This document shows, piece after piece, positions 3,129 through 54,900 of a stretch of 64,000 nucleotides of DNA; position 1 is the stretch's first letter, and each line of letters begins with the position of its first letter. Source of the DNA: Amoebophrya sp. A120 (Eukaryota; Protista; Dinoflagellata); NCBI GenBank assembly GCA_905178155.1, contig CAJINV010000016.1, positions 1,145,386 through 1,209,385 of the forward strand, in the 5' to 3' direction. The translations under genes were made by a program, and so were the position numbers. Below the pieces are notes generated by a model. That model did not search any database and was not told the origin of the DNA. It saw nothing but the letters and a program-made list of their open reading frames with translations.

Positions 3129-4150
3129 TATAAATTTGTGCGCACAGGTAATCTCAAACTCAAACGCACACTGACGCTTGTGCATGTTTTCATTCGCTTT
3201 ACAGCAACTCTTCATGAATTGTATTGTCATTATGTGACACGTATCCTGTGCAAAAGTATCGTATTCCGTATTCGTATAAATGCAAGTCTTGTTGCATTAC
3301 AAATCTTTTTCTTAAGGAAAATCCGCATTACAAATTTGATTTCTGATGCTGACGAAATTTGTAATGCATTTATACGAGTACGATACTTTTGCAGTTCATA
3401 ATACGACTCCCACAGGGCCCCGACCTTGTGACCAAGGCTGAAGAAGATCAGTGTAGCGACTCCTATCAAATGCAAATGTGTCTGGGTCTGGAAGCAGGTT
3501 GCAACTTGTGATGCTGTATTTGGATACTACAAAAGTCTGCATTGCATGAACAGCACAAGAGGTCCACGGAGAGAGGGCATTTCTCATGCGGTATATGCAT
3601 GAGAAAGCCCTCACAAAATCTGTCATGCTAAAGCATGCATCACAGACGTCAGGAGTCATGCAAGCTGTGCATGACAAACCTTGCATCTTTCCAGATTCAG
3701 ACATATTTGCAATGCATAACTCCTGCTACGACGCAATCGACCACTACGGGCTTTCCTGCCCGAAATCGGAATACGCCAGGGACGGTTCGAAACACGTCAA
3801 GGACGGCTGTACCTGGTTCGCGGATCTCTTTGGCAGCTGTTTTCTCCTCCTCCTGTTCTGCGGCTGCGTGTATGCATTGCAAATAAAGTATCGCTCTAGT
3901 ATAAATTGCATTACAAATTTTTATTTTGGCAAGAAGGTAAAGTGCAAGTGGAATTTGTAATGCTGTCTTTCCTTGAGAAAAAAAAGTCATGCACATTTGC
4001 AATTAGTACGAGTACGATACTTTTGCACAGGATAGCGTGACTGCCACACCCATCTGCTGTGCGTTTTTCTGCATCAACTACGCAACGAACCGGCAGCCTG
4101 TGGTGGTGGTGCAGCAGCCGCATCCAGAAGAAAGCTCAATGTGGCACTGA
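2997..4150 (+). CDS. Small Cys-rich single-pass membrane protein; three introners; start codon uncertain
   Basis: Removing 3242-3400, 3464-3718 and 3871-4034 (each plus one TSD) gives ...YVTRLPQGPDLVTKAEEDQCSDSCYDAIDHYGLSCPK...FGSCFLLLLFCGCVTATPICCAFFCINY...SMWH* (TGA 4148-4150). Confidence 0.6.
3242..3400. mobile_element. TAT...ATA introner, family B
   Basis: TATCCTGTGCAAAAGTATCGTA...TACGATACTTTTGCAGTTCATA; TSD ACACG/ATACG. Confidence 0.88.
3464..3718. mobile_element. TAT...ATA introner, family A
   Basis: TATCAAATGCAAATGTGTCTGGGTCTGGAA...TTCCAGATTCAGACATATTTGCAATGCATA; TSD ACTCC. Confidence 0.92.
3871..4034. mobile_element. TAT...ATA introner, family B
   Basis: Family B TIRs; TSD GCGTG. 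Confidence 0.9.
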
Positions 4151-4937
4151 AATTTAACTCTTCAGGGCATCAACACTGAAGCGAAAGCAAAAAACGGTTG
4201 ATTAAAACGATGCACTTTAGTACACAAAGCAGATACTTAATATTGCAGTAGTGTCTAAATATTGACGCCCTCAGATAAATAAGTGATTCATACGAACAAA
4301 AAGAACTCGTCCTCGACCTCCGCGTCCGTATTGTAAGTTTCACCGAAGCTGCGGTTCCGGATCGGATGAATGTTAATGTATGTGTACGATTGTAGTTTCT
4401 CTTGCTATTTCACCTCCTCCGGCGCTCTCCGAACGTCGTGCGCTTTCCTGAAATACTCTAGCTCCTCTCCCCCACCGCAACAGCTTTGGAAGATAGATAG
4501 AGAGCCCTGTTGTACCAAAAGGGTGTGCGTGTGATGTGTACAATAAACGAACGATGAACGAGCAAATAATTTTGTAGATTGCATATGCTTATGCAAGAAC
4601 AGGGCGCACCAGAAATGTTCGACTTGTTTGCCTGCTGCGCAATCCAGCAATTTCTCCACTATGACAGTGCGCAATAAATGCCGTGGTCAATCGGCAACGT
4701 CAATGCAAGAAGATCATGTTCGAAGTTTGACATTGGGTGCGTCAAACGATAATAATACACGAAGACGAAGAACAAGCTGAAGCAACTACTGCTGCATGAA
4801 CCAGGAGGAGCGCGAACTTAAACTTAGATCCTGTACTAGACATCACATAGTTCTACCTTCTTCCAAGAAAAAAAAAAAGATCTTCCAGCGTCCGCAGTAT
4901 ATAAAAACGAAATAGCGCAACCTCAACCTGCGACGCC

Positions 4938-7158
4938 ATGTCGACCCCGGTTCTTCCACAGGACGAGCCACGCAAGGCGAAAAAAACTTGCACCATCGTC
5001 ATTGTCCGTCATGTATGAAATTCAAAAGCATCGTACTAGTATGAATCGCATGACAAATTTCCTCAGCATGAGAAAGAAAATTTGTAATGCGGATTCGACC
5101 TGAGAAAGAAATTTGTAATGCATGAATGCGATTACTACGAGTGCGATAGTTTTGCACAGGATACCACGGAGAACGGTTAGACTACGAAGATTCCACCTGG
5201 GTGCTGAGCCGCAGCTCCGATCCGTATTGCAAGGAAAAATCCTCTCTTCCCATATCTAGACGAAGCTTCTGATGCCGGATTTCCGTACACAAATGCGCGC
5301 TGTCTTGCAATACGGCATCGCAGCCAGATCCTCAGCCTAGCTTGGGGCGTTTATTGGGTCTAGTTGTTTAGCATTACAAACGGCTTCCCCCTAGGCCGAA
5401 CAGCGTGCCAAATCGCTTCCATAATGGCGCGGAAGCCTCTGCGCTTGTCTTCTTGCAAGACAGGCGTGGTTTGTGGTCTCAAAGCAGCAACGCAAATTTT
5501 CGGAAGCATACCCTTTCGATATGGGGTGGGGGGATTTTTCCTCTGAATAATCCAGAATCCACACCCTATGACCCGCCCTTGACCGATCGCGGGTTTCAAA
5601 TGGCCCGGCAGGCGGGGCGGGAAATTGCGAAGTTGCTTCAGGAAGTGGTGGAGATATCCTATGCAAAAGTATCGTACTCGTACTAATCGCATTCATGCAT
5701 GACAAACGTCCTTCGTAAGGTGAAACAGCATTACAAATTTCATTTGTAATGCTAAGCGAATTTGTAATGCAGTTACTACTAGTACGATACTTTGGCATTT
5801 CATAGGAGAAAAAAACTGACAAAACTTGCGCAGCTCGTCCCCTCCGCATAATCACCTCGCCCCTGTTGCGTTGTGTGCAAACGAGCTGTGGACTGCGGGA
5901 GGGGCTGTTGAACTTGAAGGAGAGAGGACAATTGGGAACAAGGGAAGCTGGCGACGACGTCGGTAACGATAACACCAGAGAGGGAGAAGTTGGGACGCCC
6001 TCCGGCTCTTCTTGTTCTCGTCCTATTCCCTTCCACTGCAGCCTCGCCCTGACGGAAGTTGCAATGGATAAGTGGTATCTCGCGTGGTGTGTCCCAAACC
6101 AATCCGACGGCTCCTGGGGCGGGCCGTACGGGTTCAAGCTGCCCTCTAGTGAGGAGGAGAAGAACGCGCTGAATCTCCACCCCGCGGCGACAGCGCCGAT
6201 CGGGAAATTGCTCCAGAAGTGCGTGAAAGAGAATTTTCTCAGCGCGATCAGGACCGCCGGAGGTCGTGCTGTTGGTGTTGAACAAGGGGAGCAGGCAGGA
6301 GTAGCCTCTGGGAGACATCAAGTAGAAGGTCCACCCGGTCGTCCGTCGAAGTCGAGCTGCTACTGGTTAGACCGAGATGGACCATATCAAGATGTTGACG
6401 CAGCGCTGCCTTCGGACGATTTTCAACGAGTAAACACGTTCACCAAAGACGGGACGAATAACAAGGTGATCTTGACCAGGGAACTCACGGCAGAGTCCCG
6501 GAAAATTTGCAGAGAGCAGATCAGTGAAGGGACGACTGTAGACCACCACATTGGCTGCGAGGAGGGAAAAAAACGCAGCAGGGACGCGGACCTACAAGGA
6601 GCTGCAGTCATGATCCCCTTCGCGTGCCAAAGCAGCTTCGAAGCTGCATACAACCTCTTCAGCCCGGAGACGAGCCGGGAACTGAAGCAGCGCATGAAGA
6701 ACTTTGTCGCGGAGCTTGAAACGCGATTTCCAAACGAAACCCTAATCCTCTGCACCCACGGAGGGCCGACGTCGGCTGCGGTTACGGCATTGAGCGGAGC
6801 GCACGGAGAACAAGGGTACACGAGTATTAACGTTTTGGTGCCGAAGGAAAGAAACGTAAGCGCGTCCTCGCCATCTTCTGCTGGTGACACCGACGGCAAA
6901 GACCATGCGGCCCAACACGCTCCAGCAGATGCTGAAACGACGACGAAAGGGAGCAATCGCGAAAGCTATGCCGAAGATGTAGATTTGTACGACTACGAAA
7001 CGGTCGCTCTTTCACACGACCGCCACCTGCAGTGTGTGTATGATGCGGACATGCAATTGCAGAAAGACCACATGATCGCAGCTGCGAAAAAAGATGCAGC
7101 GGCGGGCCGTGGCGCGGATAGTTGTACTAGGTCTGGTGATGTCAGGAACAATTTGTGA
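4938..7158 (+). CDS. Histidine phosphatase superfamily (phosphoglycerate mutase-like) protein; three introners
   Basis: After removing 5014-5163, 5225-5549 and 5655-5804: MSTPVLPQ...TIVIVRHGERLDYEDSTW...PYDPPLTDRGFQMARQAG...RIITSPLLRCVQT...LILCTHGGP. These are the canonical RHG, SPxxRxxQT and THG motifs. Confidence 0.9.
5014..5163. mobile_element. TAT...ATA introner, family B; splits the catalytic RHG motif
   Basis: Family B TIRs; TSD TCATG/CCACG. Confidence 0.9.
5225..5549. mobile_element. TAT...ATA introner, family E
   Basis: TATTGCAAGGAAAAATCCTCTCTTCCCATATC...GATATGGGGTGGGGGGATTTTTCCTCTGAATA; TSD ATCCG/ATCCA. Confidence 0.88.
5655..5804. mobile_element. TAT...ATA introner, family B
   Basis: Family B TIRs; TSD GGAGA. 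Confidence 0.9.
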
Positions 7159-13900: not shown

Positions 13901-16900
13901 GCATGTTGAGAAGCGAAACTCGTCGAAGACGAGCACGTCAGCTGCAATAGAAATCGTCGTTGACACGGAGTTGCAGGAAAATATCGTCTTCGAAAACGCA
14001 CCAAAGGGTCAGGAGGCAGAGCAGGTACAACTAAAAACTTCTTTCAGCTTCCAGCCACCGTCGATGGTTTTGAACGCGTCAACTACTTCCGGCGCTGAGG
14101 TGCTGGCGACCTCCCCGGCGGACTTCGGTTCGACGACGACCGGCACTGGCGGCCGTGTAGATCATGAACAGGTTGGTGCAGTGGAGCTGCAACTTCAAGA
14201 GCAGGTCAACAATCCTCGCGACTGTATCGAGAAAGCTAGAAGTTTATCGCCACAGCCAGAAGAAGAAAACAGCGTCCTGTGCGCCCAGCTCGACGAGATG
14301 GTAGCGACCCGCAGCAGCCCTTCGGCGAAGGTAGAAGAAGTTGTTGCGGATGGATTGTTGAACAAAAGCAATGGTGTCGGACTAGAAGAAGAACTTGAAC
14401 AATTGCAGCCAGCGCCAACTTGTTTAGAAGACGTGCACTCGTTCTCGCCGAACTGCTGCTCCGAAGCGGATCATGAACACCCGGAGTACACGAGGAAGCC
14501 GCGTGAGGTTCTGCTGAAAACCAGGAAGCAAACGAAGGAGGTCTTGGTGAAAGAAGGAGCTCGTGTTCTTCCTGTGGATGATGTGGAAAAAGAACGAGTA
14601 GGCACTGCCGATGAAATGGTAATGAAGGAAGTGGAAGACAAAGAACTCCATCTGCAGGACATCCAGGTCTCGTCCAAGCAGACAACCTGTAGTGCGGTTT
14701 CGGACGACAAGAAAGGACACGACGAGGTGGACCACGATAGTTATCTTCTTCACGATGCCACAAAATCCTCGTCCTCTCTCATCACTCTTGTGGACGCGCC
14801 GGACCGCCTAAAGGAACCAGAACCGGAGGCGTGTGTCACGCCCGCAGCGGGGGCTTCCTCTTTTGCATTCCACGTGGACAGCAATCAGAAAGACAGGCGG
14901 AGCACCAGCTTGTGCGAAAACAACTACCTGGTGGACGCGGCTGCGTCGACAGCAGAAGTTGTTTCTCTTGCCACGACGCAGCCTGTAGTGTGTGATGCGA
15001 AAGAACAAGCCAGGACGTGGGACGGCGGAAAACAACCAGCACGACAACATGACAACTACATGCAAGATGAGCTGCAAGACCAGCAACTTCAGTCGGATTC
15101 CCTTCCCCATCCGCGATCCTCTATCCGCACGTTTTTGCAGACCAGTTTGCAGTCACACACGAACAACTCCGGCTTGTTGAACATCAAAGCTGCATCAAAC
15201 CGCTGTACGTATGGCCCCGAGATGTTCCACATTGGCGACGACGTGTCCAGTGATGATGGTGATCAATTTCTGGAGCAAAAGAATAACGCTAACGCTCTCT
15301 ACTTCCCGGGGGCTTCTAGCAAGAACAACCATGTATGAACTGCAAAAGTATCGCACTCGTATAAATGCATTACAAATTTCCTCAGCATGAGTTGGCGAGG
15401 TATTCACCGATGGGCTATTTGAGGTTTATTTCCGACAGACTGCAATTTTTTTTGGCGAAAAAAAAAAATCGCTGGGCTGAAGAGCCCTGATTGCCTTCGC
15501 GCTGGCAATCGGAGTTGTGGCGTTTAGGAGCCTGCGTCGCCTGAGCTTTTAGGCCATTAGCTGTTGACGGACATTGGCCCCCATCGCATTGCTTAATGTT
15601 TTTCCGGGTTGGCCTGTTGCGCTAGACCGGGTCGGGCGGGTCAGGACCTGCGTGGCTTGACGCGCAAGATCGCACGCAGCGCGCAGCGCTTCCAGGCGTC
15701 TTCGTGGCCCCCGTCCTGTGACAGTGGGGCCGCATTGAATTCGGCCTGGCGCACCAGCCACACCGGCGCCCGACAGTCCCGGCCAACAAGACGCCGCGGC
15801 GCGGTGAAGCGCTCTGCGAAAACTTTTTTGCTATGGGCCGGCGGCACAGCTGATGGGTTCGCCTGCTTGCGCGGCCTCCCCCCTGGCTTCGCGATGGCTT
15901 TGGTGGTTGGCCGGCATCGGGCCTCTCCCAAGCAAAGGCTGGGGTCTCGCATTGGCAGCGGTGCTTGAGGAGCAGCACACCACCCGGGGTCCTTAAAAGA
16001 AGAGCAGGCTTGGGCGGCCGGAAGTCTTTGCGGGTCACCGCCATGCCCCTGCGCCCGGGCCCGGCAGGGGCGTTCTTTTTCCGGGCCCCCCGCGCGGAAG
16101 GGGGGGTAAGCAGTTGCCTAAGAAAAATGCCCGGCCGGCCCCTGGATACAAGCGCGCCGGCCAAAGAAGGTGGCGAGCAGGGAAACGCAATGAAAACCGC
16201 CAAGCCCCAGCCTCCCGCGGCGGCTGCTTTTGCCCCCGTGAAAGCCCCCCGAAGCCTGCCCCCCCCTATTCTTAAAGCTTTGCCCGGCGCCTGCCGCGGC
16301 CCGGCCGCGCAAAATGCTGGCGCGCCACAACCGCCCCGGCGCGCCTTCCTGCTCTCAGGAGGCGCCATCGGCTGCCGGGCAAAAAGAAAAGGCCGCCGGC
16401 GGGGGGGCCAGCAGGATGCGCGACTAGCTCGGCCCCGCCCGCGCAGGTGCTTAGGCTGGGGCTTGGGGCCCGGGAAAGGTGTCGCGCGGCAGCGGGGGCA
16501 GCTTTATGGGCAAAAAAAGACCGCCCCCGCGCCCCGCGAATGGGGCGCAGCCCCGGGGACAAGAAAGGAAGCGACGCAACCCTTTGCATTTTCCCCAGCT
16601 ATCGCGGCTTGGCGCCGTTGTTGCCAAGCCGCCCGTGGGCTGAGGGCCAGCGGCCTGCGCCCAGGGGCGGTCCTCTTCGGGCAGGACTGCTCACGGGCGG
16701 CGACCGCTTGTTCGCATGCCCCCGGGCCTGCCGCGCCCCCCGGGCGACCCCGTCCGGGGGGGTAGTTGGAGGTAAATTTCTTACCGGGCGAAATTTGCGA
16801 AATATTTAGGTTCGTCTGCCCCTGATATTTACAAAATATTTAGCTCGAAACGCGACCACAGTGTTTTCCCATTGAAATCATTAAGGAGCCGAATCCGGCC

Positions 16901-19900
16901 GCGTTTCGAGCTAAATATTTTGTAAATATCAGAAGCGTTCCGAGCTAAATTTTCGCAGTGTTCCGGCAGCCGGGCCGCGGACCGGATTGGCGCTTCGCGA
17001 GGGCTTCCGGGGCCCCGGTGGTGCCTCTCCGACGCAGGCAGCAGGGCGACGGGCCCCAAGCCCCCGCCCGGGGAATGCAGGGCGGGCCCGGGGAAGAACT
17101 CGGGGGCAACGTGAAAAAGGCCGCAAAGGCTCCGCCGGCAAGGCCGGCGTCAGCGATGTCCGCTTGGGGGCTCTTCCGCTGCCCGGCCGGCCGCCCAGAG
17201 GATGTGGATGGGCGGCCCCTTGGCTTCGGGGAAGGCCCCTGCAGTGGGAGAGGGTTCGCGCAAGCTACCTGGCGCGCGCGTCCGCGGAACACCCGGGGCC
17301 CCCCGTCGCAGACCTTAGCCCGCCGGATGGCGCCGCCGCCTTCCGAGCCACTATCGCGCCCTTGTGCCCGGGCCCGGCCACAGCGCCTTTTTGGGATTTG
17401 CCCTCTGCCCGGCGGCACGCGAGGAAACCACGCAAAAGGCCCAAACCCCCGGCAGGCCGCGGCCGGAAAAAAGACCGGGCCGCGGGGCGGGCTTACCTGG
17501 AGACGCGTTGGCAGCCGGCCGCGTTGTTTTTCTGCCGGGCGCGTGTGCATGTTTCTGAAGTTCCCCAGCACCGGCCTGGCTTTTTGCAAAAATCCCCCCG
17601 CTTGTATTGCGCAAATCGGCCGAACAAAGCCGGCGCGCAGCGGGTGGCCCGGCGCTTCCTTTACCATGCCGCGGCCCCGACGCTCCGTTGGGGCATCCTG
17701 GCAAGCAGCCTCGAAGGACACGGAGCAGGGGCACGCGCAGCCGGGCAGCGGCCACACGGGGGGGCCGCGGCGTAAAGGGAGGTGGCAGGGGCCAAGCGAA
17801 AACAGGCAGGGCGCGAAGGAGGGTGGGAGGCCATGCGGCAATTGCCTGCTAGTGTGGGGCCCGCAAAAACGCAGCGGGGCGAAACCACACCACGGGCCGC
17901 GACGCGGTCTCGCCGCTGATGGCCGTTCCCCAGTCTTGGGTCGCTTCGAAAAAGTAGGCGCGCCAGGAGGCGCCCCGGCCTTTCCTTGAGATAGGCCGCC
18001 TAGCGGTTTCGGCAATGGGCCTTGCGGCAGTGCACGAAGCCCGTGCTGCTGCGGTAAGTATGGTTTTGGGGGGTGCGGAGGAGTTCCGGGTGGTGTACCT
18101 TGCGGTGTGGCGTGTCGCTCGGGAAAATCATCCGTGCGATTAGCCCGCAGCGTCATCTCCTTGCCGCCCTCATGGGGGTGAGTGTGTGTCGTGCCCCGTG
18201 CCGTGCAGCTGACAGCCATAAAGGAGAGGCCATGCTCAGGGGCCCCCATATCAACTCACGACTGGCCGCGGCTTGGCAAAAATGGATTTTGCATCCGAAA
18301 AATGTCGGAAATTTCGCCTGCAATACCCAAATCCGCACTACAAATTTTATTTCTCATGATGAGAAATAAAATTTGTAGTGCGGATTTGCCTCAAGAAAAA
18401 GATTTGTAATGCAAGACTTGCATTCGTACGAATGCGATACTTTTGCACAGGATACCACGACACCCCGGGCAAGATCGCACAGCAAAACATGGACAAGGCG
18501 TATCAAATGTAAAAATGTCTGGGTCTGGAAGAATGCAAGTTTGTCATGCTTGTCTGGCATGACTCCTAAAAAATCTGTCCTGCGCATTACCAAAGAGCCC
18601 CACTTTTCTGTCATGCAGAAACGTAGTTTGTCATGCAGAATAGGCAACACCTAGAAGCTCAGAAACTTGTCATGCTGAGCCAGCAAGTGTGGCCTCCTCA
18701 TGATACGCCACACAGCATCACAAGTTTCCAGACCCAGACATTTTTACATTTGATAAGGCGTTTGAGCAGGCAACACTGCTCTCGCAGTCCTTCACGTCGC
18801 CGTCGGTGGTAGTGAACGGTCTGATGGATGAGGAACTTCTCGTCGGCGCACAGCAAGTAGACAGTAACCACGAGGACAGTGATGGCGCAGCTGCTCTCCA
18901 GAATATTAGCGTCATCCGCGAGAAGCTGTTTGCTGATCTGAAATTTGGGTTTGGCGGGAAGGAAATCAAGAAGATGCGGGACGACGACGGGTACACGACC
19001 AAGAGCCGTGACTTTGCCATGCAGGAGAACAATTGCCGGGAAGACGACCGATATAAACATCCTTCGAACAATTACGCTGATGACCTCTCGGGGTTCATTG
19101 ACGAGCAAGAGGAGATTGATTTTGAAGATGCAGGGCCGTACAACACCAGCGGCCACCGAGGAGGAATTGGTGCCCAGTTTGATCATGCGCAACATACTGA
19201 TACTCGGGACCACGACTGGCGCGTAGAGCAAGCTGATGGCGATGGGGATCATTGTTTCGCCGAGTCCTTTATCAAATGCAAAGATGTCTGGGTCTGGAAG
19301 GGTGTAACTTGTGATGCACATTTCAGAACACAGAAAAATCTGTCATGCATAGCTAGCAAAAGCTGCCCAGTTTCTGTCACCAAACTGGGGGATTTGTCAT
19401 GCGGATTTGGCATTGCGGAAGCTTCTCGAAACCTGTGATGCTAGAGCTTCCATGCCCGACCTTCTCTGTCATGCAAAAATAGCATGACTCTTCCAGACAC
19501 AGACATTTTTGCATTTGATATCCTTCACCGCTGCGAAGAAGCGCAGGGTGGACGAAGAGGAGCACAATAAATTCGAAGACATCTACCTCTCACCGAATGA
19601 AGTTGTAAAGAACTCCTGTCGTGCGCTATGAGTGTGCACAACTCCACCCCCTCCCCCTCATTTGTAATGCAAAATACCAAATCCACATCTTGCCTTGAGC
19701 CACTGCCTGCATGGCAAATTTATTTGGAAGCTCAAACAGTACGACAACCCGTGTTCAGGTTTGTCATGCGGAAGCGACATATCTGCCGTTGTTTGTGTTG
19801 CTGTTCATGCCACACAAATGAAGGGCGGGAGGGGGAGTTGCGCGCTGTCATATGCGCCGTGGGACAGCGACAGAATGCGGTCGACGTTTTGGAAGGGCGA

Positions 19901-42900: not shown

Positions 42901-45900
42901 CCGCCAGGATCATTCTGGCAGCGTTGGTGTGCTCGAACAAGGAAAAGGCTCGTCTTCGAAGACTGGCGTGCCCCCGCGCCCCGCGGGCAATCCGCCCCCG
43001 AACCCGCGCTCGGGAGGAGCGGTTGGTGGTGGACCACCCCCGCAAATTCCGCCCATCCACGGGATGAACATGCAGGCGATGCGTAGTCAACACGTTTCCA
43101 CGCCAACGGATCAACATGTTAAAAATCTTAATCTCGAGGAGAATCAACAACATCTCCGTGTTGGTGCAGCTGAAGATACGAGCAGTGTCATTTGGCAGGA
43201 GCAACACGGTGGTCAAGATGAACATCTACCACGAGAAACCACCACTTCCGAGATGGACAATTCGCACTCTTCGTACCAAGATCTGGTGGGCAGCATGACA
43301 GAAGCCGAAGGTGGAGGTGGACAACTGGATCATGTTCTTGGCAATCAGCAGCAGCAGCAAGGCGGTAAGGTCGTGGAGCAGACGACCGAAGCGTGGCTGC
43401 GAAGCCAGTTGGAGCAACACCTTTTGCAGCGGGGCAGAGAGCAGCAGGCGGGGGTGGAGGAGCAACAGCAACTTTTGCCGATTCCGCAGCTGCGTCGGGA
43501 CGATGTTTGTTCCCACAGCAATGTAGTTGACCAGCAAAGTCATGCGCGGCAACATGCCAGCACCAACACAACTTCTGGTGGTGCCCCTCCTCCGCAGCAG
43601 CAGCAGCAGCAACAGCCCTTTCAGCAACAGGCGTCGCCCGAGGAAGCCAGTCTTGCGACGAACTCGGCCCGGTCTGCGATATCGTACGTGATCAATGCAT
43701 ATCAAATGTAAAAATGTCTGGGTCTGGAAGAATGCAACCTGTCATGCTAATTCTGAAGCATGCAAAAATCTGTGTTGCGTGATTACCAAAAGTCGTCCAG
43801 TTTTGACCAAGTCGCGAGGGAGTTTCTCATGCAGGATAGGCATGAGAGAGATCACACAGAATCTGTTATGCTAGGTCCTGCATTCCAGACCTCATGGGTC
43901 ATGGAAAAGCGGCATGACAAATCGCGCACTCTTCCAGATCCAGACATTTCTACATTTGATAATGCATTGGAGGGCGTCATGGGTCGCGAGGAGGTGGCGG
44001 CCTTGCTGTCCAACGAGGTGCGGAAACTTGTCACCCCCGGCGATGAGCACATCGTGGCCACACGATTGATGCAGCAGCAGCAAGGAGGACTAGGAGTAGG
44101 CTCACAACTACATGGTGGTCTCGGTCAACTACATCAAGTTGGGAACAATGACGGTCCTCGTGGGCAGCTCCTGCAACACAACACCAACCAACTTCCGCAG
44201 CAACAACTACACGGCTCGCTGGTTCAACATCCGTCCACTTCCCCCACCCGTGCGCCGGCGTTCGGTTCGAGCGATCGTGACCGCGAGGACAGCTTGATGG
44301 AGCACTACGGACCCCGTGCTGGTGCAGGGCCCCCGCTGCACCAGCACCTCCAGGGAAGTCCCCGTAGCAGCATGATGTTTCATCAACAAGCATCGCAGCA
44401 TCCTCGTGGTCAGCACCTACAGCATCCGGTGGATCATGGTCGTGAAGATGATCATGACCGCGTTGCGCGAGACGACTTGCGCCGGCAGTTACGCGATTTA
44501 GAGCACCAGTACCATGAGCAAAGGGCGCGGAACAATCGTCAGCAGGACCTGAGCCAGCATTTTGGCAGCAGCGGCGGGCCGCACCAGCAGTATCCGAACA
44601 TTAGGCCTGGGGGCCCAGGCGAGGGCGGCGCGGGGAGTAGCCGCGACGTCATGTTGCTGGATCAGGGACGCCGGGGATTCGTCCCCCACAGGAACGACAA
44701 TGACAGTCGCAATTTCTACGATGAGGATGACCTCGCGAGTAGCAGCTACAATGGCAGTAATGCGCCGCGGATCGGTGCCACGACCAACACGTCTGGGTTG
44801 CGGCGCCCGAATAACATGATGCATCAAGAACGTCACAGTTTTCAGGACCAAGAACCTCTTTCTCAAGCTCACCAACGGAGCAAATATCGAAACTACATTC
44901 TCGATGGCGAAGACATGGAGGAGCGTAATTTATCGTTTCAGCAAGAGCAGCACCAGAATATGCAGGCGCAACACGACGAACCTCATCAGGTAGTGCACGA
45001 CAAAAACTCCTCCCGATCCGCGACCTCCCGCGAAACCACGAAGCGACAGCACGAACTGGCGCTGTGTACCAAGATGCAGGAGGAAATGGAAATGCGGATT
45101 CGCCTTGACGAGCAGGAGCGGACCACGACGAGAGTTGGGGGCAACAACTACATGGATAATTCGTCTCGCAGTGCTGGTAACTATCCACCACCTTCCGGAT
45201 CTACTTCGGGTGCAATTCTTGATCCCCGAGCAGACGCAGACAATAATTACGAGTACGAAGACAGCCTGGACCGCGAGATGCGGGACCGCGACGAGCGCGT
45301 GCGCCGGATGGAGATGGAGCGTCGGCAGAAGGAGTTGCGCGCGCAGATGCAGCGCGATCTTCGAGATCGCGAGAGCGGGCGGATCGACTACACGGTGAGT
45401 GCGCGGGAGCGCGAACAACTGATGATGATGCACCAGCACCAGCAGAACCGCGGTAGGTTCGGAGGCGGTGGAGGTGCAGCATCTGGTGGGTTTTTTTACA
45501 ACCATGATCAGCACTACATGGACAAGCGCCGGTATGGAAGCGCCAGGTTTGAAATCGACAAAGTTGAAATGATTTCTCATGCATAAAATGCAAGGCATGA
45601 ACTGCCTGTCTTGCCGGGATGGCAAGTGAGGCCGACTCTCAGCCTGTTTAGGGTTTGGAGTAGAGCTGCTAAAGTAGCATGACAAAAGCAGTCGTCTCTG
45701 CCCAAACAGCATGACAAATTGGATTCCGGTGCTCGGAAAATTTGTCATGCACCGCTTGAAAATTGGGCTTCCAACTGGTATCGATTTTATGCATTACAAG
45801 TTATTTCAACTTTGACGATTTCAATCCTGACGCTTCCATAGCAGGGACAGTATGCACGGACGAGGTCAACATGGTCATCTGCACGAGCAGCAGCAACATC

Positions 45901-48900
45901 ACCGCGGTCAAGAGCAGCAGCAGCAACATGACGATCTTCGTGGAGGAGGACGAGGTGGTGACTACAACAACACTTCTCACTACCAGCAGCAACTTCGCGG
46001 AGGCAATCAGAAGGAGCAAGAACTACAGGGAAATCAGAACCTCCGCAGTGGTCCGCCGCCGCCTCGCGAGCAAAATAAATACAACCACAATAATTATCCC
46101 TCGAACTATCCGCAGCAGCACCCGGGAGGAGCAGGTGGACCACCCGCGGCCCATCAGGGTGAACAGCAGCAACACCGTCCGGGTTCGGGGGGCGCAGGCG
46201 CACACCCGGGCGGCGACCAGCAAGCGAATTCGTTCAAGGAGAACAACAAGCAGCAGAAGCAGCAAAACAAAAACAACAACCGCGATTATCAGCAGGAGCC
46301 GCAGAGTACGCCCGCAGTGGCGCCGCGAACGGTCGGGGGGGAGTTTCAGAAGAACCGCGATAATCCCTTCCGCGATTTTCACGCCACGCACGGGGGCACG
46401 AGCGTGATGGAACGCGAGTGCCAGATGCGCCACCTCCTCGTGTCCACGAACAGCAGCCGGTTAGTGGGGCATTTTCAATCCAAGGAGTTTCACGAACAAA
46501 AGTCGGACCGCGGCTCGACGCGGAAAGGGAAAAAGAGGAACAACGGGGCCAGCACCGCGGACGGAAAGAGCTCGATCGCCAGCTCGGAAAACACGAAAAT
46601 ATCAAATGTAAAAATATATGGGTCTGGAAGAGTCCGAACTTGTGATGCTGCATTTGGATTCCAAAAAAATCTGTATTGCATGACCAGCAAAGGGAATGCA
46701 ATTTTGGCTACGCGGAGAAGGCATTTGTCATGCGGAATAGGTATCACGAAGCCCTGAAAAAGTCTGTGATGCTAGGGCATGCATCACAGACATCGTGGCC
46801 CATGCAAAACGTGCATGACAAGTCTCAGAATCTTCCAGACCCAGACATTTTTACATTTGATAGAAAAGCAGAAAGCGCAAGACTGGCGGTAGCTCTGCTG
46901 GTGATAGAGGTTCTTCCTGCGCCGACAGTTACTCGGCCCCGGCGCTGCAGAAGCAGGCCGAAATTATCCTGCGCAAAAGCATCGCTGCACTCGTGGAAAT
47001 CGTTGCATGAACAAGTCTAAGTCATGCGGCGTTTGACCAATATCTTTCCCAAACTCCTAAACCATCATTACATAGAAACTCAGCTTTTCTTCTTGCCAAT
47101 AAACAGAAAATATTTTTTGTGATGCTAGAATTCGAAAAATTCTCCCACCAGTACGAAGATCCTTTTGCCATGCATGCACATGATGCAGCAGCAATTGGAA
47201 CAGATGCACAAAACGTCTGCCGCTGGAGATGATCCCGGGACCACGATGAAAGACTTGATTAATTCTGAGCTGCTGTCCTCGACTGCGAGCAGTTCCGGAA
47301 ACGACGAGTCTTGCGATGCCCGGGACCGGTACTCGACTTATCAAGTGTAAAAATGTCTGGGTTTGGAAGATTCATGCTGTTTTTGCATGACACAGAATGT
47401 CTGGCATGGAAGCTCTAGCATGACAGGTTTCGAGAAGCTTCCGCAATGCCGAACCCGCATGAGAAATCCCCCATTTTGGTGACAGAAAGTGGGCAGCTTT
47501 TGCTACCTATGCATGAGAGATTTTTCTGTGTTCGAAAATTCGCATCACAAGTTCGGATCCTTCCAGACCCAGACACTTTTGCATTTGATACGACTTTGGA
47601 CCAGTCGATTTTGGAATACATGGAACGGCATGCGCGGATCCAATCGGCGAAGCAGGGAACGAGCAACTCGGTGGAGAGCGACATCTACAAGAAGATCGAG
47701 AACACCTTGAAACAGCAACGGCTGATGGAGGAGCAGGTGCAGACCGACGGGACCAAGACGCGCGGAAAGCTGACCAGCATGATGCTGGAACAGGTCCCGG
47801 AAATGCGCACGTTGCGGGTCTTCTTGTTGGAGAATCACACTTTGGTTGGCGGTGGTCAACATCATCTACCCATTGCGTTACAACCTCCGACTGGTGCCGT
47901 GCCGGTCGCGGGGAACAAGATGAAGACCAAGCTGGCTTTGGAAAATAAAAGCGGTGCTGCGCAGCTGACGACTTCATCTCCGTTGAAGGACGCGAATATT
48001 AAACCTCTGGAGCCGGATATGAGAGCGTCAGGTCGTTATTTTGCTTTTACTTTCAAAATTTTTTTTTGGTGCAGGAGGTCGCTCTAGGTGTGTTTACAAG
48101 CGGCCAGATAACTCGACACTTAGTGGAGCTACTACAGGAATATCCGACAAACGAGACTAATAGCTTTCTAGGGACAAAAGTGCCACCCTCGATCACCGGA
48201 TCACCGCGACCGGCATGGCATTGAAATCCCCTGACCCGAGTTTGAGCGGCGCCTGGCGTGGGGCGTCGTCCCGGGACGTGTTCCCCTGTGTGTGGCATGC
48301 GTGTTGCAACGCAGCCGCGCCGGATAAGGCCAGTCAGACCCATGAGCCAATGCCCAAAAATTTGCAACGCTTTCGGGGGAAAACCAGGGCTGCCAGAAGG
48401 ACCTACTCGGCTGCGAAGCCCGCGCGAAATAAGTGGCGCGCTGTGCGAATAAAGTCACGTGGTGGCCGTTGCAAAGCCACAGTGAGCAGGAAGGCCGCAG
48501 CACCGCCCCCGCGCCTGACTAGGGGCGCCTTCGCATGCCAAGCGCGGAGCTGGCCACCTCCGCTCTTCGGGTGGTGTTTGATGCGCTTGCGGCGCAGTCT
48601 CCCGGCCGTTGCCCACTTGCGAACGCATCGGCCCCTTCTGCATTTCTGCATGGGCGCGCCTCGGGCGTAATGGTGCCCTGGCAGCGGCGCTGCAAGATGG
48701 CTGGCCGGGTAAAGGCAAGCCTCCTGCTGGACAGGTGCACGACTTCGGCCGGCCGCTGTGTTTGGCGCCCGAAGTCCGCCCCATGTCCTGAGTGCAACAA
48801 TTCGAACTCTCATTCATGAGGCGCCTTCGAGACGAGTACCTTTCACCCCCCTCCGGCACCCCTCTCGGCTGCCTCTAAGTAGTTGAGAAAAAAATCGCCA

Positions 48901-51900
48901 TAGCATGCGGCCTGGAGTCATTTGGGGGGTCGTTCGGCTGCCCCTAGTCCTCAACTACTTAGAGGGTGCCCGAAGAGGGTCCAGAAGGGGTCGCCCTTCT
49001 TGGGAAAATGAAATATCTGGCCAGAGGGCCCCCTCTCGCCAACTCATCGGGCAAGAGTGCCTGCTGCCTATGCCGCCCTAGTCAGCAACCCCCACTGCGC
49101 CTGCCGGCGGCCCGAAGACTGGGGATGCTGGGCCTCTACATCACGCGCTGGCGCCACTGCGTTGCGATTTGCGTTCCTCTCCTGCACATGTTATGATGGC
49201 CCATTTGGGCAGCTACGCGATGGGCCGAATCCACTTGACGGCAAATTCAAGGAAACACGTCAGCCCGACTCTCCGAGACTATTCGCGCCCCCATGCGAGA
49301 GCGATGGTAGGCAATTTATTCTACCGAGACCCTTGGCCCGGTGTGATGCTACTCTTCTCTGTCTGACCTTGGTAGTGCGACGTCGCCACACCGTGCCAAG
49401 AAGACTCATGCGCAGCCGCGCGGAGTTTTCCCCCTCTTTGGTGTGTTTGATGCAGGCGCGTCAGCCATTTCGATATATTTGCGAGCGTGCAAGCGGCTGC
49501 CCATCGGCGCGGGGGCAACTCCTTTCCGTATGTTGACTTTCCGCTTGCCCCTACCTGAAAGCCCCACAAACACGGCACCCCAGGAAAGGGCTGTCTTGCG
49601 GTCCCAGATTGTGCGTGCCAGCAGGACAGAGGCCTGCAGGCTTTAAGCGTCTTGGTGCGCAGAACGGACGAGCACAGGCCGCGTCGGTGCGCGCGCTCTG
49701 CAAGCAAGAAGCAAAAACATGAGACAATGCCCCTCCAAGCACCAAAGAAAAATTTTGAAAGTAGTTGAAGAATAAGCACCTGACGCTCTCATACCGGAGA
49801 CGAAAGCGATGCTGTCAAAGAAGCACAGCGGAGTACAAGAACAGCACGGAGATGAGGCTCCTGCACAAAAGCTGACTGCCGACGGGGGTGCGGTCTCTAT
49901 TACAACACCGGGCGGAGGAGCGAAAACCGCGGTGCTGTCGACCACCGCTGGCGCGTCTAGCACCTCCTACGCTTTGGGATCCGGATCTACCGTTTTCACG
50001 GGAGATGGGACCACTACGATCGCCGGTGTGACGACGAGCCCCTTGGTTGTGAACGATGAAACTGATGGCATTGGAGGTTGTTCTGGTGCTGCGGAAGTAG
50101 GGGGAAACAAAAAACTCCTGCCAAAGCTGACTTGCTCTGGCGATGTTGATCTTAAGAACTCCGATGGCGCGACGAAGATGTTGATTCCTTTGAAAGATGG
50201 CCCTGATGATACTCTCGTCCTCCCCGCACAGAACCAGCAAAACCAGACGGGGATCATTTCTACTACTTCCCGAAGCGGCGAGCAACAAGCTGGCTTGACG
50301 CAAAACGTTAACCAGCAAAAAGACAACGAAGACGCGCAGTCGCAGAACAACCTTCCGCCGGAGGGGTCGATTTCGTCCAGTAATCGCTCGGGGTCCCATG
50401 CGACGTCCTCTAAAAACAGCAAGCAACTGAAGCCGGCCTTGCTCAACATGCGCGCCGCGTTTCAGTGGCTAGACGTTGGGTTCCAAGCGGCCCCGGGGGC
50501 GGGGGCGCAGGATATTGCAGGTGGAAATAAAGCAGGAGCAACCTCGAACAACAATTTCGATCTTCAGTCGCGCTCCGGCGCTTCCTCGGAGCAGGTGGGT
50601 GGGACAAACGAGAATAATAGCAGTAACGTCGACGCCCTCACAAGTTCCGACAAGACGAGCAACGATCTGACTTCCGGCTCCCGCATGGAGGCTGCAGGAG
50701 GACCAGGCGCTCCTTCTTCTGTCTGCTCCGACGACCTGTTTATTTCGAACCAGAGCACCAGCAGCCGCGGACTCACCGGCACGAACAAGGTTTCAGGCAC
50801 CTACGGAGACCTGGACAGTTGCGAGAACATGAGTTCGATTTCCAGCAGCTATGCGCGCAGTTCCGACTTCGGCACCGACGCGGCTACTTCCAGAGGTGCA
50901 GGACCTCGCGGCAAAAATAAAGATCAGCCTTCGCCAAACAACTACGGGGACCACCGGGTGGGACATCTACAAGGCAGCGGCGCAGGACTTTCTTTCCTCT
51001 ATCCGCCCTCGTCGGCCTTTCCGTCGCCGAGCCGGGCCTTCTCGCCGCAGCTGATGCTCCAGAATCTGCCGCGGAACCTGACGCGCGAAGATCTGCGCCG
51101 CCTGGTCCGGTACTTCAACCTCTGCCGCGTGGAGAAGGTCGAGCGCGTCGGCAACGGCCACCACGGCAAGGATCAGAAGGGCACCGGGAAGATGGGCAAC
51201 GGCGCCGGCTTCTACGGCAAGGACAACACCTTCTGTGGGCCCTGTCCCACCGTGGAACAATCCTCGCAGCAGCAGCAGACGTATCCCATGTGCAAAAGCA
51301 TCGTACTCGACGTCGTCCTAATCGCTATCGCAATCATGCAAGATGACAAGCCATCTTGTCGACCTAAATCAGCATGGCAAATTTCATTTGTCATCATGCT
51401 GGGCGAATTTGTATTTGTATCTATAGCGATTACTTCTACGTACTACCGTGACATCAAAGAACCTTTTGCATTGCATAAGATGCACAAGACGCAGGTCCTG
51501 ATCACGCACGAGGAAGCGCGGCTGGAAGCCACGGACCGCGAGATCGCCGAAGTGCAGCCGTTGCAGACCGGCTCCTTATATCAAATCCAAAAATGTCTGG
51601 GTCTTGAAACTTGTGATGCTGGGTGGCGTCTCATGATGAGGCCACAAGTGCTGGCTCAGCATGGCAAGTTTCTGAGCCTCTAGGTGTTGCTTATTCTGCA
51701 TGACAAACTGCGTTTCTGCATCACAGAAAAATGAAGCTGTTGGGTAACGTGCATGACAGATTTAAGAGTCATGCCAGACAAGCATCACAAACATGCATTC
51801 TTCCAGACCCAGACATGTTTGCATTTGATACCTTACCGGTCTTAACCCTGGTGATCACGTCCGGGGGCGGCGCGAACCTGCAGGACGGAGGCTCCTCTGG

Positions 51901-54900
51901 CCACCCCCGCGGGGCGGGCACGCGCGCGGCCTTCATCCAGCGCTGCTTTTGCGGGAAGCACACGGAACTCGACGACGTTTTCTGCGTGGAGCGCGTGCCC
52001 TACAGCCTGCAGAAGGCGCTGCCGGGGACCGCGAAGCACGGCGCCTTCTTGCGGATGATGCGCCGCAACCTGTCCAAGATGGTGGCCCGCGAGTCGTTCG
52101 AACTCCGATTGCTGGAAGATTTGCGGTTGCGGTTCGCGAACGAGGTACCCTATGTAAAAACGTCCCCACTCCATATTTGTAGTGCAAATGTGCAACGACT
52201 GTAACATTTGTAATGCGCATCTGCATGAGAGGCATTTCCAATCGTGTTTTGGACTTTGTAATGCTGTAAACAGGATGACAAGCTGGCTTTCTCGTCATGC
52301 GGCTGCCTTTGCCAACCAGCACTACACTGCCGATGGGAACTTGTCATGCACAGCGCCCAAATCTTGGAGATTTGTGTTGCAGATAGACCAACTTGACTAT
52401 CGGGCGGGGACGTTTTTGCTCAGGATACGAGGCGAAATCGCGCGCGGGGCAAATGAACTTCTGCCGGGACATCACCTTCTGCTTCGACCTGCACGAAGAC
52501 AAACACTGCCGCATCCAAATGGCTACGCAGGTATGATGTTGGGGTCGAAAGAGCTTTTGCTTTTCACATTCAATAGTCCTGTCTGCGTTAGTGTGATTGT
52601 GATACTTATTAATTTCAATTTCCACCTCCGATTTTTTTACTGATTCTGTACCTGTACGTCTTTCTCATCATGATCATAGTCATTTCATCTGAAAGCATTG
52701 TGATTGGCTCCGGATGAACAGGATCATGATCGTCCAGTCTTCCTAAAACCTATCTCCCCAACCCCGACATCAGGGTCCTCCTGGGTGAAGATCAACATTA
52801 TGTTGTTGTTGGTGATCTCGATATATAACATCAACACTTTTATCGGCATAATTTAAGTAAGTAGTACGTACAACAAACACCTCAGGTTCTCCTCTGGTTG
52901 TGGCGTTATTCGCAGAACCTGTCCACCTCCAAGTCCGCGATGTTGCAATTTGTCGGGCGGTATCAAATGTAAAAATGTCTGGGTCTGGAAGAGTGCAAGA
53001 TTTGTGATGCAGGTTTTCCATGACCCACGAGGTCTGCAATGCGAGACCCAGCATGACAGATTCTTTGACGTCTCTATCATGCCTTTCCTGCATGAGAATC
53101 TCCCTCTCAACTTGGTCAAAAGCGGACAGCTTTTGACACTTACGCAACACAGATTTTTGCATCATTGAGATTTAGCATGACAAGTTCCATTCTTCCAGAC
53201 CCAGACACTTTTACACTTGATAGGCGGAAAGAGGGCAACAACGGGGGCTTAAACCCGACCTTCCGCGTCCGCCATGTGTACGACCGCACGGACCTGATGA
53301 TGGACGAGGAGGTCCGAGACTACGTGCAACACCAATCCACCTGGGACCTGTTTAAGTTGGACCCCAGCTATGAACTGCAAAAGTATCGTACTAGTAGTAA
53401 TTGCAGTCATGCATGACAAAACTGGTTCCTTAGCTTATTCGGCATTACAAATTCCATTTTTCTTTCTGGAGAAATTTGTAATGCTATTTCTACTAGTACG
53501 ATGCCTTTGCAATGCATACCTCCATGTGCTGGTCGATTCGGAACATCTCGCCGCCCGCTTTGGAAACGTACACCGAGGTATCAAATATAAAAGTGTCTGG
53601 GTCTGGAAGATTGCCAGGGTTGTCATGCACATTTTGCATGACTACTGATGTCTGTGATGCATGCCCTAGCATCACAGATTTTGTGAGGGCTTCCTGATAC
53701 CTATACCGCATGACAAATGCTCTTTCCGTGTAGCAAAACTTGGGCTCTCCTTGCTGCTCATGCAATACAGATTTTTTTGGAATCCAAAATCAGCATGACA
53801 ATTGGGATTCTTCCAGACCCAGACACTTTTGCATTTGATACGAGGCCGAACTCGCCCGCCGGCGCGCGCGGAGGCAAGTGCGCATGAAGGCGGCGCAGCT
53901 GCGGAAGCAGCAGCGAGCAAACAACAAGGGACAAGCTGCGAAGAAAGGTGTGGCAGGAGAGCTCGACCGAAATAACACCAGTAAATCTTCGGACGGCACA
54001 GAAGTTGTGAACGCGAACAGTGTTGAACATGGTGAGCTGTTGGAAAGAACTGCCGACGACAAAGCTCCTTTGGAACAAGGTGAGCAAGAACCTGGCAATG
54101 TGGATCATTTGTCCGATGACGACGACGATCACGCCGACGACATTGACTTTACGAAACCGATCGAAGGGCAGCAGAAGATGAAACAAAAAGCCACGATTGC
54201 TGGTCATCTTCAAAGCAAGGCCGCTTTGAAAACGGGTAGTTCCTCCTCGGCGGAACAAGATTGCGATCATTTGTTGAATAAGCATCGCAAAAGTATCGTA
54301 CTAGTACAAATTGCATTGCAAATTTTTTGTGAAACAAAAATGCAGTTTGTCATGCGGATTTCGGTAAAAAAGCGAATCTGTCATGCGTCGTTGCATTTGC
54401 AATTAATACGTATACGAGTGCGATACTTTTGCAATGCATATTGAATTCCTCTTCGAAAGGTACATCCGACCAAGACCTCCTGCAAGACGCGGCACTGCTA
54501 CAAGATCCCTCGCAGGCCGCCTTGGAGCCGGTTCCCATCCCGCCCTCTCTTCTGAATTCGAACCGTTGTATGAAAGTGCACAACTCCCCCTCCCCCTCAT
54601 TTGTCATGCAAAATTCCAAATCCACCCTTTGCCTGTTAGTACGGTTTGCATGACAGATTCCGGAATCCGAAACAGCACTACAATCTCCTAGAAGGAATTT
54701 GTCATGCAAAAGCTGCATCTTTGCCAGCGCATGTGTTGCTGTTCATGCAATACAAATGAGGGGGAGGGGGAGTTGTGCACTGTCATACGTTGTCGCCCGT
54801 GGCTGGAATGCACCTACATCTGCGGCACTAGGATGAAGCTCAGCTTTCGGAAAGGTATATATCATGTAGAAGAGCTCTCTAGAAGAAGAAGCATGTGGTC

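What the first reader, a model, noticed from the sequence alone, without database searches (positions are those of the whole stretch)
48018..49793. 1,776-bp introner with 62-bp TIRs: candidate master element that still acts as an intron
Seen: the same TAT...ATA ends and a perfect CCGGA TSD as the 145-325-bp elements, but 5-12 times longer. Its TIR tip TATGAGAGCGTCAGGT matches family C (TATGGAAGCGTCAGGT) at 14/16. The interior is GC-rich and looks like decayed coding sequence, arranged around a central inverted repeat. It does not appear to be a short introner plus a nested insert. Removal fuses two long ORFs in frame. A GT(48032)-AG(49776) splice inside the TIRs would also be in frame (+12 aa). 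Inference: a decayed autonomous element or large deletion derivative, and the best lead here to the unknown introner transposase. TAY...RTA termini recall IS3EU-type DDE elements, but from memory those make 6-bp TSDs, so the superfamily is open. I could not recognise a transposase motif.
Basis: partly seen in the sequence, partly recalled or inferred. Interest (0 to 1): 0.85.

Follow-up and report, generated by a model that had tools for sequence, protein, structure and literature searches.

The report
Long non-coding transposon spliced as intron
A 1.8-kb piece of mobile DNA with three to four copies sits in a coding exon of a parasitic dinoflagellate and is cleanly missing from a contig of a likely RNA run, but it shows no sign of encoding the enzyme that would move it, so it is likely a long passenger element of an already described class and not the sought master copy.

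Summary
The element is real: 1,776 bp, CCGGA duplicated on both sides, 55-nt TIRs (85%). An upstream exon matches an NCBI protein labelled Amoebophrya sp. A120 at 100%. DNA contigs show about 3-4 copies with different flanks, and a 93%-identical partial copy with its own 5-bp flank lies in another assembly. One contig of a likely-RNA run removes 1,781 nt: the element plus one TSD, with no GT-AG reading possible. The in-frame GT48032-AG49776 splice was not seen. The 'master element' idea is not supported. The interior has no coding signal, substitutions between copies fall 26/26/24 on the three codon positions, and Pfam, NCBIfam and PHROGs find no transposase. Family C shares only the 16-nt tip. 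Long, low-copy TIR introners are already listed for A120 (PMC12130899, Dataset S2). What is left of value is a test case in which TIR/TSD-defined removal wins over an available GT-AG pair, and a midpoint hairpin also seen in a second long element in the window. Verdict: new member of a known kind; interest 0.38.

The parts
48013..48017 (.). left target-site duplication CCGGA
48018..48072 (+). left TIR (55 nt ungapped; to about 48079 with one gap); first 16 nt resemble the family C tip
48073..49738 (.). non-coding interior, 60% GC, shared with the other copies
48502..49026 (.). core that is identical in all copies of run X1 (one unitig, depth 146 vs 41-44 for flanks); likely homogenised by gene conversion
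48847..48887 (+). left arm of midpoint inverted repeat; carries a 10-mer also present in the right TIR (48877 and 49759)
48950..48990 (-). right arm of midpoint inverted repeat (centre 48918.5; element midpoint 48905.5)
49739..49793 (-). right TIR
49794..49798 (.). right target-site duplication CCGGA
48013..49793 (+). the 1,781 nt missing from the likely-RNA contig (element plus one TSD; the cut may slide up to 5 nt; none of the six registers reads GT..AG)
48032..49776 (+). in-frame GT...AG interval inside the TIRs (1,745 nt); not seen as a joint
47591..48012 (+). host exon upstream; its first part matches NCBI partial protein P0001 (labelled Amoebophrya sp. A120) at 100%
49794..51280 (+). host exon downstream; part of a frame open for 1,212 codons across nine joints (45841-53370); no Pfam family

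Best explanation
It is a low-copy, non-coding TIR element of the Amoebophrya TAT...ATA introner class that sits in a coding exon and is removed together with one copy of its 5-bp duplication in a likely-RNA contig; it was likely inserted by a transposase encoded elsewhere, and its removal is likely guided by pairing of its two ends in the pre-mRNA rather than by GT-AG signals. Shown: ends, TSD, several copies with different flanks, the joint, the restored frame, and no detectable coding capacity. Inferred: (1) a trans-acting enzyme making a 5-nt staggered cut, most likely of the DDE/integrase kind (the termini fit IS3EU/GingerRoot, the TSD length does not); (2) the TIRs form a roughly 55-bp stem that sets the two TSD copies side by side, and the host splicing machinery cuts within that register; (3) gene conversion between copies has homogenised the core.
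For: Mobility: flank depth 41.4 and 44.4 vs 146 in the core; three right flanks and two left flanks among the 15 loose ends shown (2 more hidden). L001 holds 48608-49793 at 93% identity with right flank TCGTG, the same 5-mer as the other left flank in X3/X4/X5; that right flank is open for 100 codons from the TSD. Splicing: X3 record 9 (330 nt, depth 4.2, 162 and 168 nt on the two sides, no differences) skips 48013-49793; DNA runs X1 and X4 show no such joint. In 6 of 6 TAT...ATA elements with a joint shown in 45000-53400, exactly element+5 nt is removed, and only 1 of the 6 can be read GT..AG. Nine joints give one open frame of 1,212 codons. The minimum-energy fold pairs the TIRs from 48018/49793 inward. 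Non-coding.
Against: The joint rests on one contig in 1 of 2 likely-RNA contig runs from one sample; the run type is the tool's guess. Raw-read RNA runs X9 and X10 do not cover the exons. Contigs drop rare isoforms, so minor GT-AG use is not excluded. No transposase was found, so the enzyme class is unshown. G-U-compatible TIR mismatches are not clearly strand-biased over 39 elements (44 vs 33), so selection for RNA pairing is not shown. The tip lacks the AAA run described for most A120 motifs.
Confidence: 0.75

Rival explanations
1. Decayed autonomous element or large deletion derivative: the interior is a remnant of the transposase gene and the element is the parent of family C.
For: Long TIRs and a tip shared with family C beyond chance. 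A 198-codon open frame in the L001 copy. Published A120 family 38 has TIRs, a '5-bp TSD, TA/TA termini' note and weak Copia/Gypsy-like similarity.
Against: No stop depletion, periodicity or codon bias. Substitutions 26/26/24 by position; synonymous 18 of 57 in the longest frame. No family hit in 6 frames (Pfam, PHROGs) or 12 frames (NCBIfam) apart from one domain of unknown function at E 0.18. The 198-aa frame finds nothing among 4,538 candidates or in plasmids. Positions 17-60 match family C at 9-17 of 44 and the interiors align no better than shuffles. No joint shows a longer colinear copy. These tests cannot see very old decay, and the full HMMER search never ran.
Confidence: 0.1
2. Origin by capture: a short introner with these TIRs took up about 1.5 kb of unrelated GC-rich DNA, and the enlarged unit was then copied. 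This concerns origin and is compatible with the best explanation.
For: The neighbour 15334-18454 is exactly this: a 145-bp-family element split in its middle by about 2.97 kb of GC-rich DNA. One X1 contig shares only the last 46 nt of the right TIR and then differs; others leave the match at 48473 and 49059. GC rises from 0.42-0.51 in the first 200 nt to 0.55-0.70 further in.
Against: No internal TSD/TIR pair. No short family with these TIRs among the 37 short elements of the window. No donor locus in the window, plasmids or phages. The contigs that leave the match may be truncated copies, as L001 is.
Confidence: 0.3
3. The joint is a DNA empty site (insertion-free allele or precise excision), not RNA splicing.
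For: X3 is only guessed to be RNA; record 9 spans this one joint alone; precise removal equals the pre-insertion sequence.
Against: X3 contigs also skip other introns of the gene, two on one record, and a GT..AG intron without TAT...ATA ends (52527-52883). X3 has no cover across the interior beyond its first 130 nt; DNA runs X1 and X4 have no joint.
Confidence: 0.06
4. The element is mainly removed as a canonical GT48032-AG49776 intron that adds 12 residues.
For: Both dinucleotides exist and the frame holds.
Against: The only joint listed on 47750-50060 is the 1,781-nt one; both dinucleotides lie in or at the predicted TIR stem.
Confidence: 0.05

Closest known systems
Amoebophrya introner elements (Farhat et al. 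2021, PMC7789003; passages and sections 10-11 read)
   Same: Repeated non-canonical intron with terminal inverted repeats and a 3-5-nt direct repeat; starts with TAT as in A120; no internal transposase. The paper found two putative transposases in A25 and none in A120.
   Different: 1,776 bp, outside the 40-1,000 bp window that paper analysed; TIR 55-62 nt vs 8-20; tip has TCAG where most A120 motifs have an A run.
Long low-copy A120 TIR introner families in Gozashti et al. 2025 (PMC12130899; passages read, all 58 A120 rows of Dataset S2 seen)
   Same: Long TIR introners already listed: fam38 (5 copies, about 808 bp, TIR 49-53, noted '5-bp TSD, TA/TA termini'), fam196 (4, 811 bp), fam86 (4, 1,619 bp), fam103 (27, about 1,190 bp), fam135 (4, 1,180 bp).
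   Different: No row gives a length near 1,776 bp with a 55-62-nt TIR. The rows hold no sequences, so identity could not be tested. No Copia/Gypsy-like hit was found here, unlike fam38 (Repbase not available).
IS3EU/GingerRoot DDE transposons (PMC10045372, passages read)
   Same: TA..TA termini.
   Different: TSD usually 6 bp there, 5 bp here; no DDE ORF here.
Ginger1 and Ginger2/TDD (PMC2836005, passages read)
   Same: TIRs of 40-270 bp; TDD-4 and TDD-5 make 5-bp TSDs.
   Different: Ginger termini are TGTNR; most make 4-bp TSDs; no integrase-like ORF here.
MITEs and other non-autonomous TIR elements (general knowledge, recalled)
   Same: TIRs, TSD, no coding capacity, moved in trans.
   Different: Longer and far fewer copies than a typical MITE; tolerated in exons because it is removed from the transcript.

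Membership tests
Amoebophrya introner element (IE) | inverted repeats at both ends of the intron | tested here: met
   55 nt at 85%
Amoebophrya introner element (IE) | 3-5-nt direct repeat at the exon/intron boundaries | tested here: met
   CCGGA twice; TCGTG as left flank in runs and right flank in L001 for a second copy
Amoebophrya introner element (IE) | repeated in the genome | tested here: met
   core depth about 3.4 times the flanks; several flanks; L001
Amoebophrya introner element (IE) | removed from the transcript at non-canonical boundaries | tested here: met
   one likely-RNA contig, 1,781 nt, no GT..AG register; a single contig
Majority A120 IR motif (TAT, 7 nt, AAA) | run of at least three A after position 10 | tested here: not met
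   positions 11-14 read TCAG, as in family C; not filed under this motif class
Autonomous TIR transposon / master element | transposase ORF, intact or recognisably decayed | tested here: not met
   profile-profile and full HMMER searches not run
Parent of family C | subterminal or interior sequence shared with the short derivative | tested here: not met
   9-17 of 44 at positions 17-60; local scores 19-25 vs shuffle maxima 23-26, 4 of 4 copies
IS3EU/GingerRoot | TA..TA termini | tested here: met
   definition
IS3EU/GingerRoot | TSD usually 6 bp | tested here: not met
   longest flanking direct repeat is 5 bp
IS3EU/GingerRoot | IS3-like DDE transposase in the family's autonomous member | not testable with these tools
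   no whole genome held; no autonomous partner found
Ginger1 / Ginger2 | TGTNR termini | tested here: not met
   termini are TAT (definition)
Fold-back (decayed long palindrome) element | arms similar to each other between TIR and centre | tested here: inconclusive
   global and banded arm alignments no better than shuffles (z -0.9 to 0.4; z -1.5); short stems slightly enriched on the midpoint diagonal (p 0.03-0.05; 7 in the central 14-nt bin vs at most 3 in 29 others)

The most novel reading that the evidence does not exclude
Long TAT...ATA introners form a fold-back class built as TIR, arm, conserved midpoint hairpin, arm, TIR. The hairpin is a functional cis site (for transposition or for folding the pre-mRNA), and end-pairing over 1.8-3.1 kb overrides GT-AG signals, which would point to a structure-guided splicing route and an enzyme outside the known TIR superfamilies.
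Probability: 0.13. Interest if true: 0.75.

Novelty: new member of a known kind. Interest (0 to 1): 0.38.

Why it matters
How Amoebophrya removes its non-canonical introns, and what moves them, are open questions; PMC7789003 reports no U1 snRNA and no transposase in A120. This locus does not deliver the transposase. It does give a natural competition test: an in-frame GT-AG pair and a TIR/TSD-defined joint lie on one 1.8-kb intron, and the TIR/TSD joint is the one seen. If raw reads confirm it, end-pairing defines the intron over about seven times the usual length. The public protein record found for this gene is partial and ends before the element, which suggests long introners break gene models.

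Tried and rejected
No whole genome was held and L001's record could not be searched further, so the genome-wide TIR search was not run. No RNA holder was listed on record. Rfam: three hits at E 3.3-4.7, all far under gathering. Viral contigs: no match to the TIR. Plasmids and phages by blastn: no match. Host gene: no Pfam family in four exons, no longer homologue of the downstream exon among 7,985 scored candidates, one weak PDB hit to ELAV-like protein 1 at E 0.88; an RRM-like motif is my reading by eye only. The HMMER search of representatives never ran and the ESM Atlas gave no answer, so remote homology is less tested than planned. Decayed-palindrome idea: not supported by arm alignments. 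Midpoint apex in short elements: 25 of 37 vs 54% in shuffles with ends kept, so not distinctive. Strand bias of G-U pairs: 44 vs 33, not convincing. Supplement file 3 of PMC12130899 turned out to be Dataset S10, so the empty searches there carry no information. The 3242-5163 row was dropped as a cross-pairing of two short elements. Earlier scan findings: none. Literature searches were made; Roy et al. 2023 (Curr Biol) was seen only as a reference; figures S9-S10 of PMC12130899 (legends only seen) and the supplement of PMC7789003 (not opened) may bear on novelty.
Full report
Observation. The sequence is as described: 48018-49793, 1,776 bp, TAT...ATA ends, CCGGA on both sides. The TIR is 55 nt at 85% without gaps and about 61-62 nt with one gap. 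A scan for TAY...RTA ends with a 5-bp direct repeat gave 40 rows: 37 short elements of 145-325 bp, this one, a 3,121-bp element, and one cross-pairing that I dropped. The host is labelled by a protein hit: an upstream exon matches NCBI partial protein P0001, Amoebophrya sp. A120, at 100% over 41% of the query; that record ends before the element. No whole genome was available.

It is mobile. In DNA run X1, which may be the source of the window and so is not independent, the flanks have depth 41.4 and 44.4 and both junctions are intact. The core unitig 48502-49026 has depth 146, about 3.4 times the flanks. Among the 15 loose ends shown (2 hidden) there are two other right flanks and one other left flank, ending TCGTG. 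A scan of metagenome contigs for the TIR found one contig, L001, holding 48608-49793 at 93% identity with right flank TCGTG. It carries 17 of the 18 listed alleles of the divergent X1 copy, and its flank is open for 100 codons from the duplication. I read this as a second exon insertion with its own 5-bp TSD; left and right flanks come from different data sets, so linkage is inferred. L001 differs from the window at 14 positions plus one indel in 48608-49026, where X1 copies are identical (P about 2e-8 at the L001 rate), which suggests gene conversion among copies.

It behaves as an intron, and not through GT-AG. X3 record 9 (330 nt, depth 4.2, no differences) joins 48012 to 49794, removing 1,781 nt; DNA runs X1 and X4 lack the joint; it is the only joint listed on 47750-50060. 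None of the six possible registers reads GT..AG. Seven TAT...ATA elements lie in 45000-53400; six have a joint shown, all six remove element+5 nt, and one can be read GT..AG. Nine joints give one frame open for 1,212 codons. Limits: one contig, in one of two likely-RNA runs of one sample; run type guessed by the tool; raw RNA runs X9 and X10 do not cover the exons; contigs hide minor isoforms.

It is not a recognisable master element. Stop counts, longest open run, period-3 signal and codon score equal shuffled sequence. The 76 substitutions against L001 fall 26/26/24 on codon positions, and no frame shows a synonymous excess. Pfam on six frames gave one hit to a domain of unknown function at E 0.18; NCBIfam on twelve frames and PHROGs on six gave none. 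The longest frame (198 aa in L001) found nothing among 4,538 longer candidates or in plasmids. Family C shares the 16-nt tip beyond chance but nothing further in 4 of 4 copies, so the two may use the same enzyme but family C is not a deletion product of this element. No joint points to a longer colinear copy, though a partner sharing only the tips would escape this test, and one contig shares just the last 46 nt of the right TIR. The full HMMER search did not run.

The midpoint hairpin. The inverted repeat at 48847-48990 is above chance (0 of 150 shuffles) and centred 13 nt from the midpoint. Against L001 its arms have 1 substitution in 82 nt and its loop 8 in 62 (Fisher p 0.005, chosen after seeing the data); arms against the rest give p 0.054. 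The unrelated 3,121-bp element at 15334-18454 has a stronger hairpin 17 nt from its midpoint and an excess of short stems on the midpoint diagonal. For the 1,776-bp element that excess is borderline and arm-to-arm alignments are at chance. This stays a hint.

Mechanism. Shown: ends, TSD, copies, joint, frame. Inferred: insertion by a trans-acting transposase with a 5-nt staggered cut, most likely DDE/integrase-like; removal guided by the TIR stem, which the minimum-energy fold predicts from 48018/49793 inward, setting the two TSD copies side by side. Which enzyme cuts the RNA is unknown; a modified spliceosome is my guess, given that PMC7789003 found most spliceosomal proteins but no U1.

Known context. 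PMC7789003 (passages, sections 10 and 11) describes A120 introners with TAT-starting inverted repeats, 3-5-nt direct repeats and no transposase in A120, analysing introns of 40-1,000 bp. PMC12130899 (passages; 58 of 58 A120 rows of Dataset S2) lists long low-copy TIR families, including fam38 with '5-bp TSD, TA/TA termini' and fam86 at 1,619 bp; no row matches 1,776 bp, and rows carry no sequence. IS3EU/GingerRoot have TA..TA ends but usually 6-bp TSDs (PMC10045372, passages); Ginger ends are TGTNR (PMC2836005, passages). The superfamily stays open.

Verdict. A new, long member of a known introner class. The master-element reading fails the tests I could run. Interest 0.38, for the GT-AG versus TIR competition and the unexplained midpoint hairpin.

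Noticed in passing
window 15334-18454: A 145-bp-family introner split in its middle by about 2.97 kb of 65-70% GC DNA, in an exon whose frame reopens when element plus one repeat is removed. AT-rich hairpin with 57-nt arms at 16801-16953 near the midpoint; perfect 30-nt fold-back at 18328-18388; no Pfam hit of note, no period-3 signal.
   Followed up: partly
window 48502-49026: All copies in run X1 are identical over 525 bp while the neighbouring parts differ by up to 10%; the L001 copy differs there at 14 positions. Likely gene conversion between copies.
   Followed up: partly
window 49748-49793: One X1 contig matches only these 46 nt of the right TIR and then differs: a possible sister family with the same ends, the best remaining lead to a partner element.
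   Followed up: no
window 48018-48148: Likely-RNA runs X3 and X5 hold the first 120-130 nt of the divergent copy (6-nt deletion) joined to its own left flank. In X5 the piece is followed by that flank again plus two letters that match the L001 right flank, a weak hint that this copy is also removed precisely.
   Followed up: no
L001 1558-2478 and 3842-4709: The element copy is cut off at window position 48608 and joined to the start of a duplicated gene segment (30-nt exact repeat, 81% over 711 nt): a deletion or a misassembly.
   Followed up: no
window 46963-47179 and 51281-51481: Two introns removed in likely-RNA contigs that start like TAT introners but lack a clean ATA end and 5-bp repeat: worn introners that still splice.
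   Followed up: no
window 45841-53370: Host gene of at least 1,212 codons with nine introns in this stretch, no Pfam family in the four exons scanned; the one public protein found covers 259 residues only.
   Followed up: partly
window, 39 TAT...ATA elements: The last base of the TSD is G or A in 28 of 39 elements, which would give GT or AT as a 5' boundary if the cut falls one base before TAT; not tested against background.
   Followed up: no
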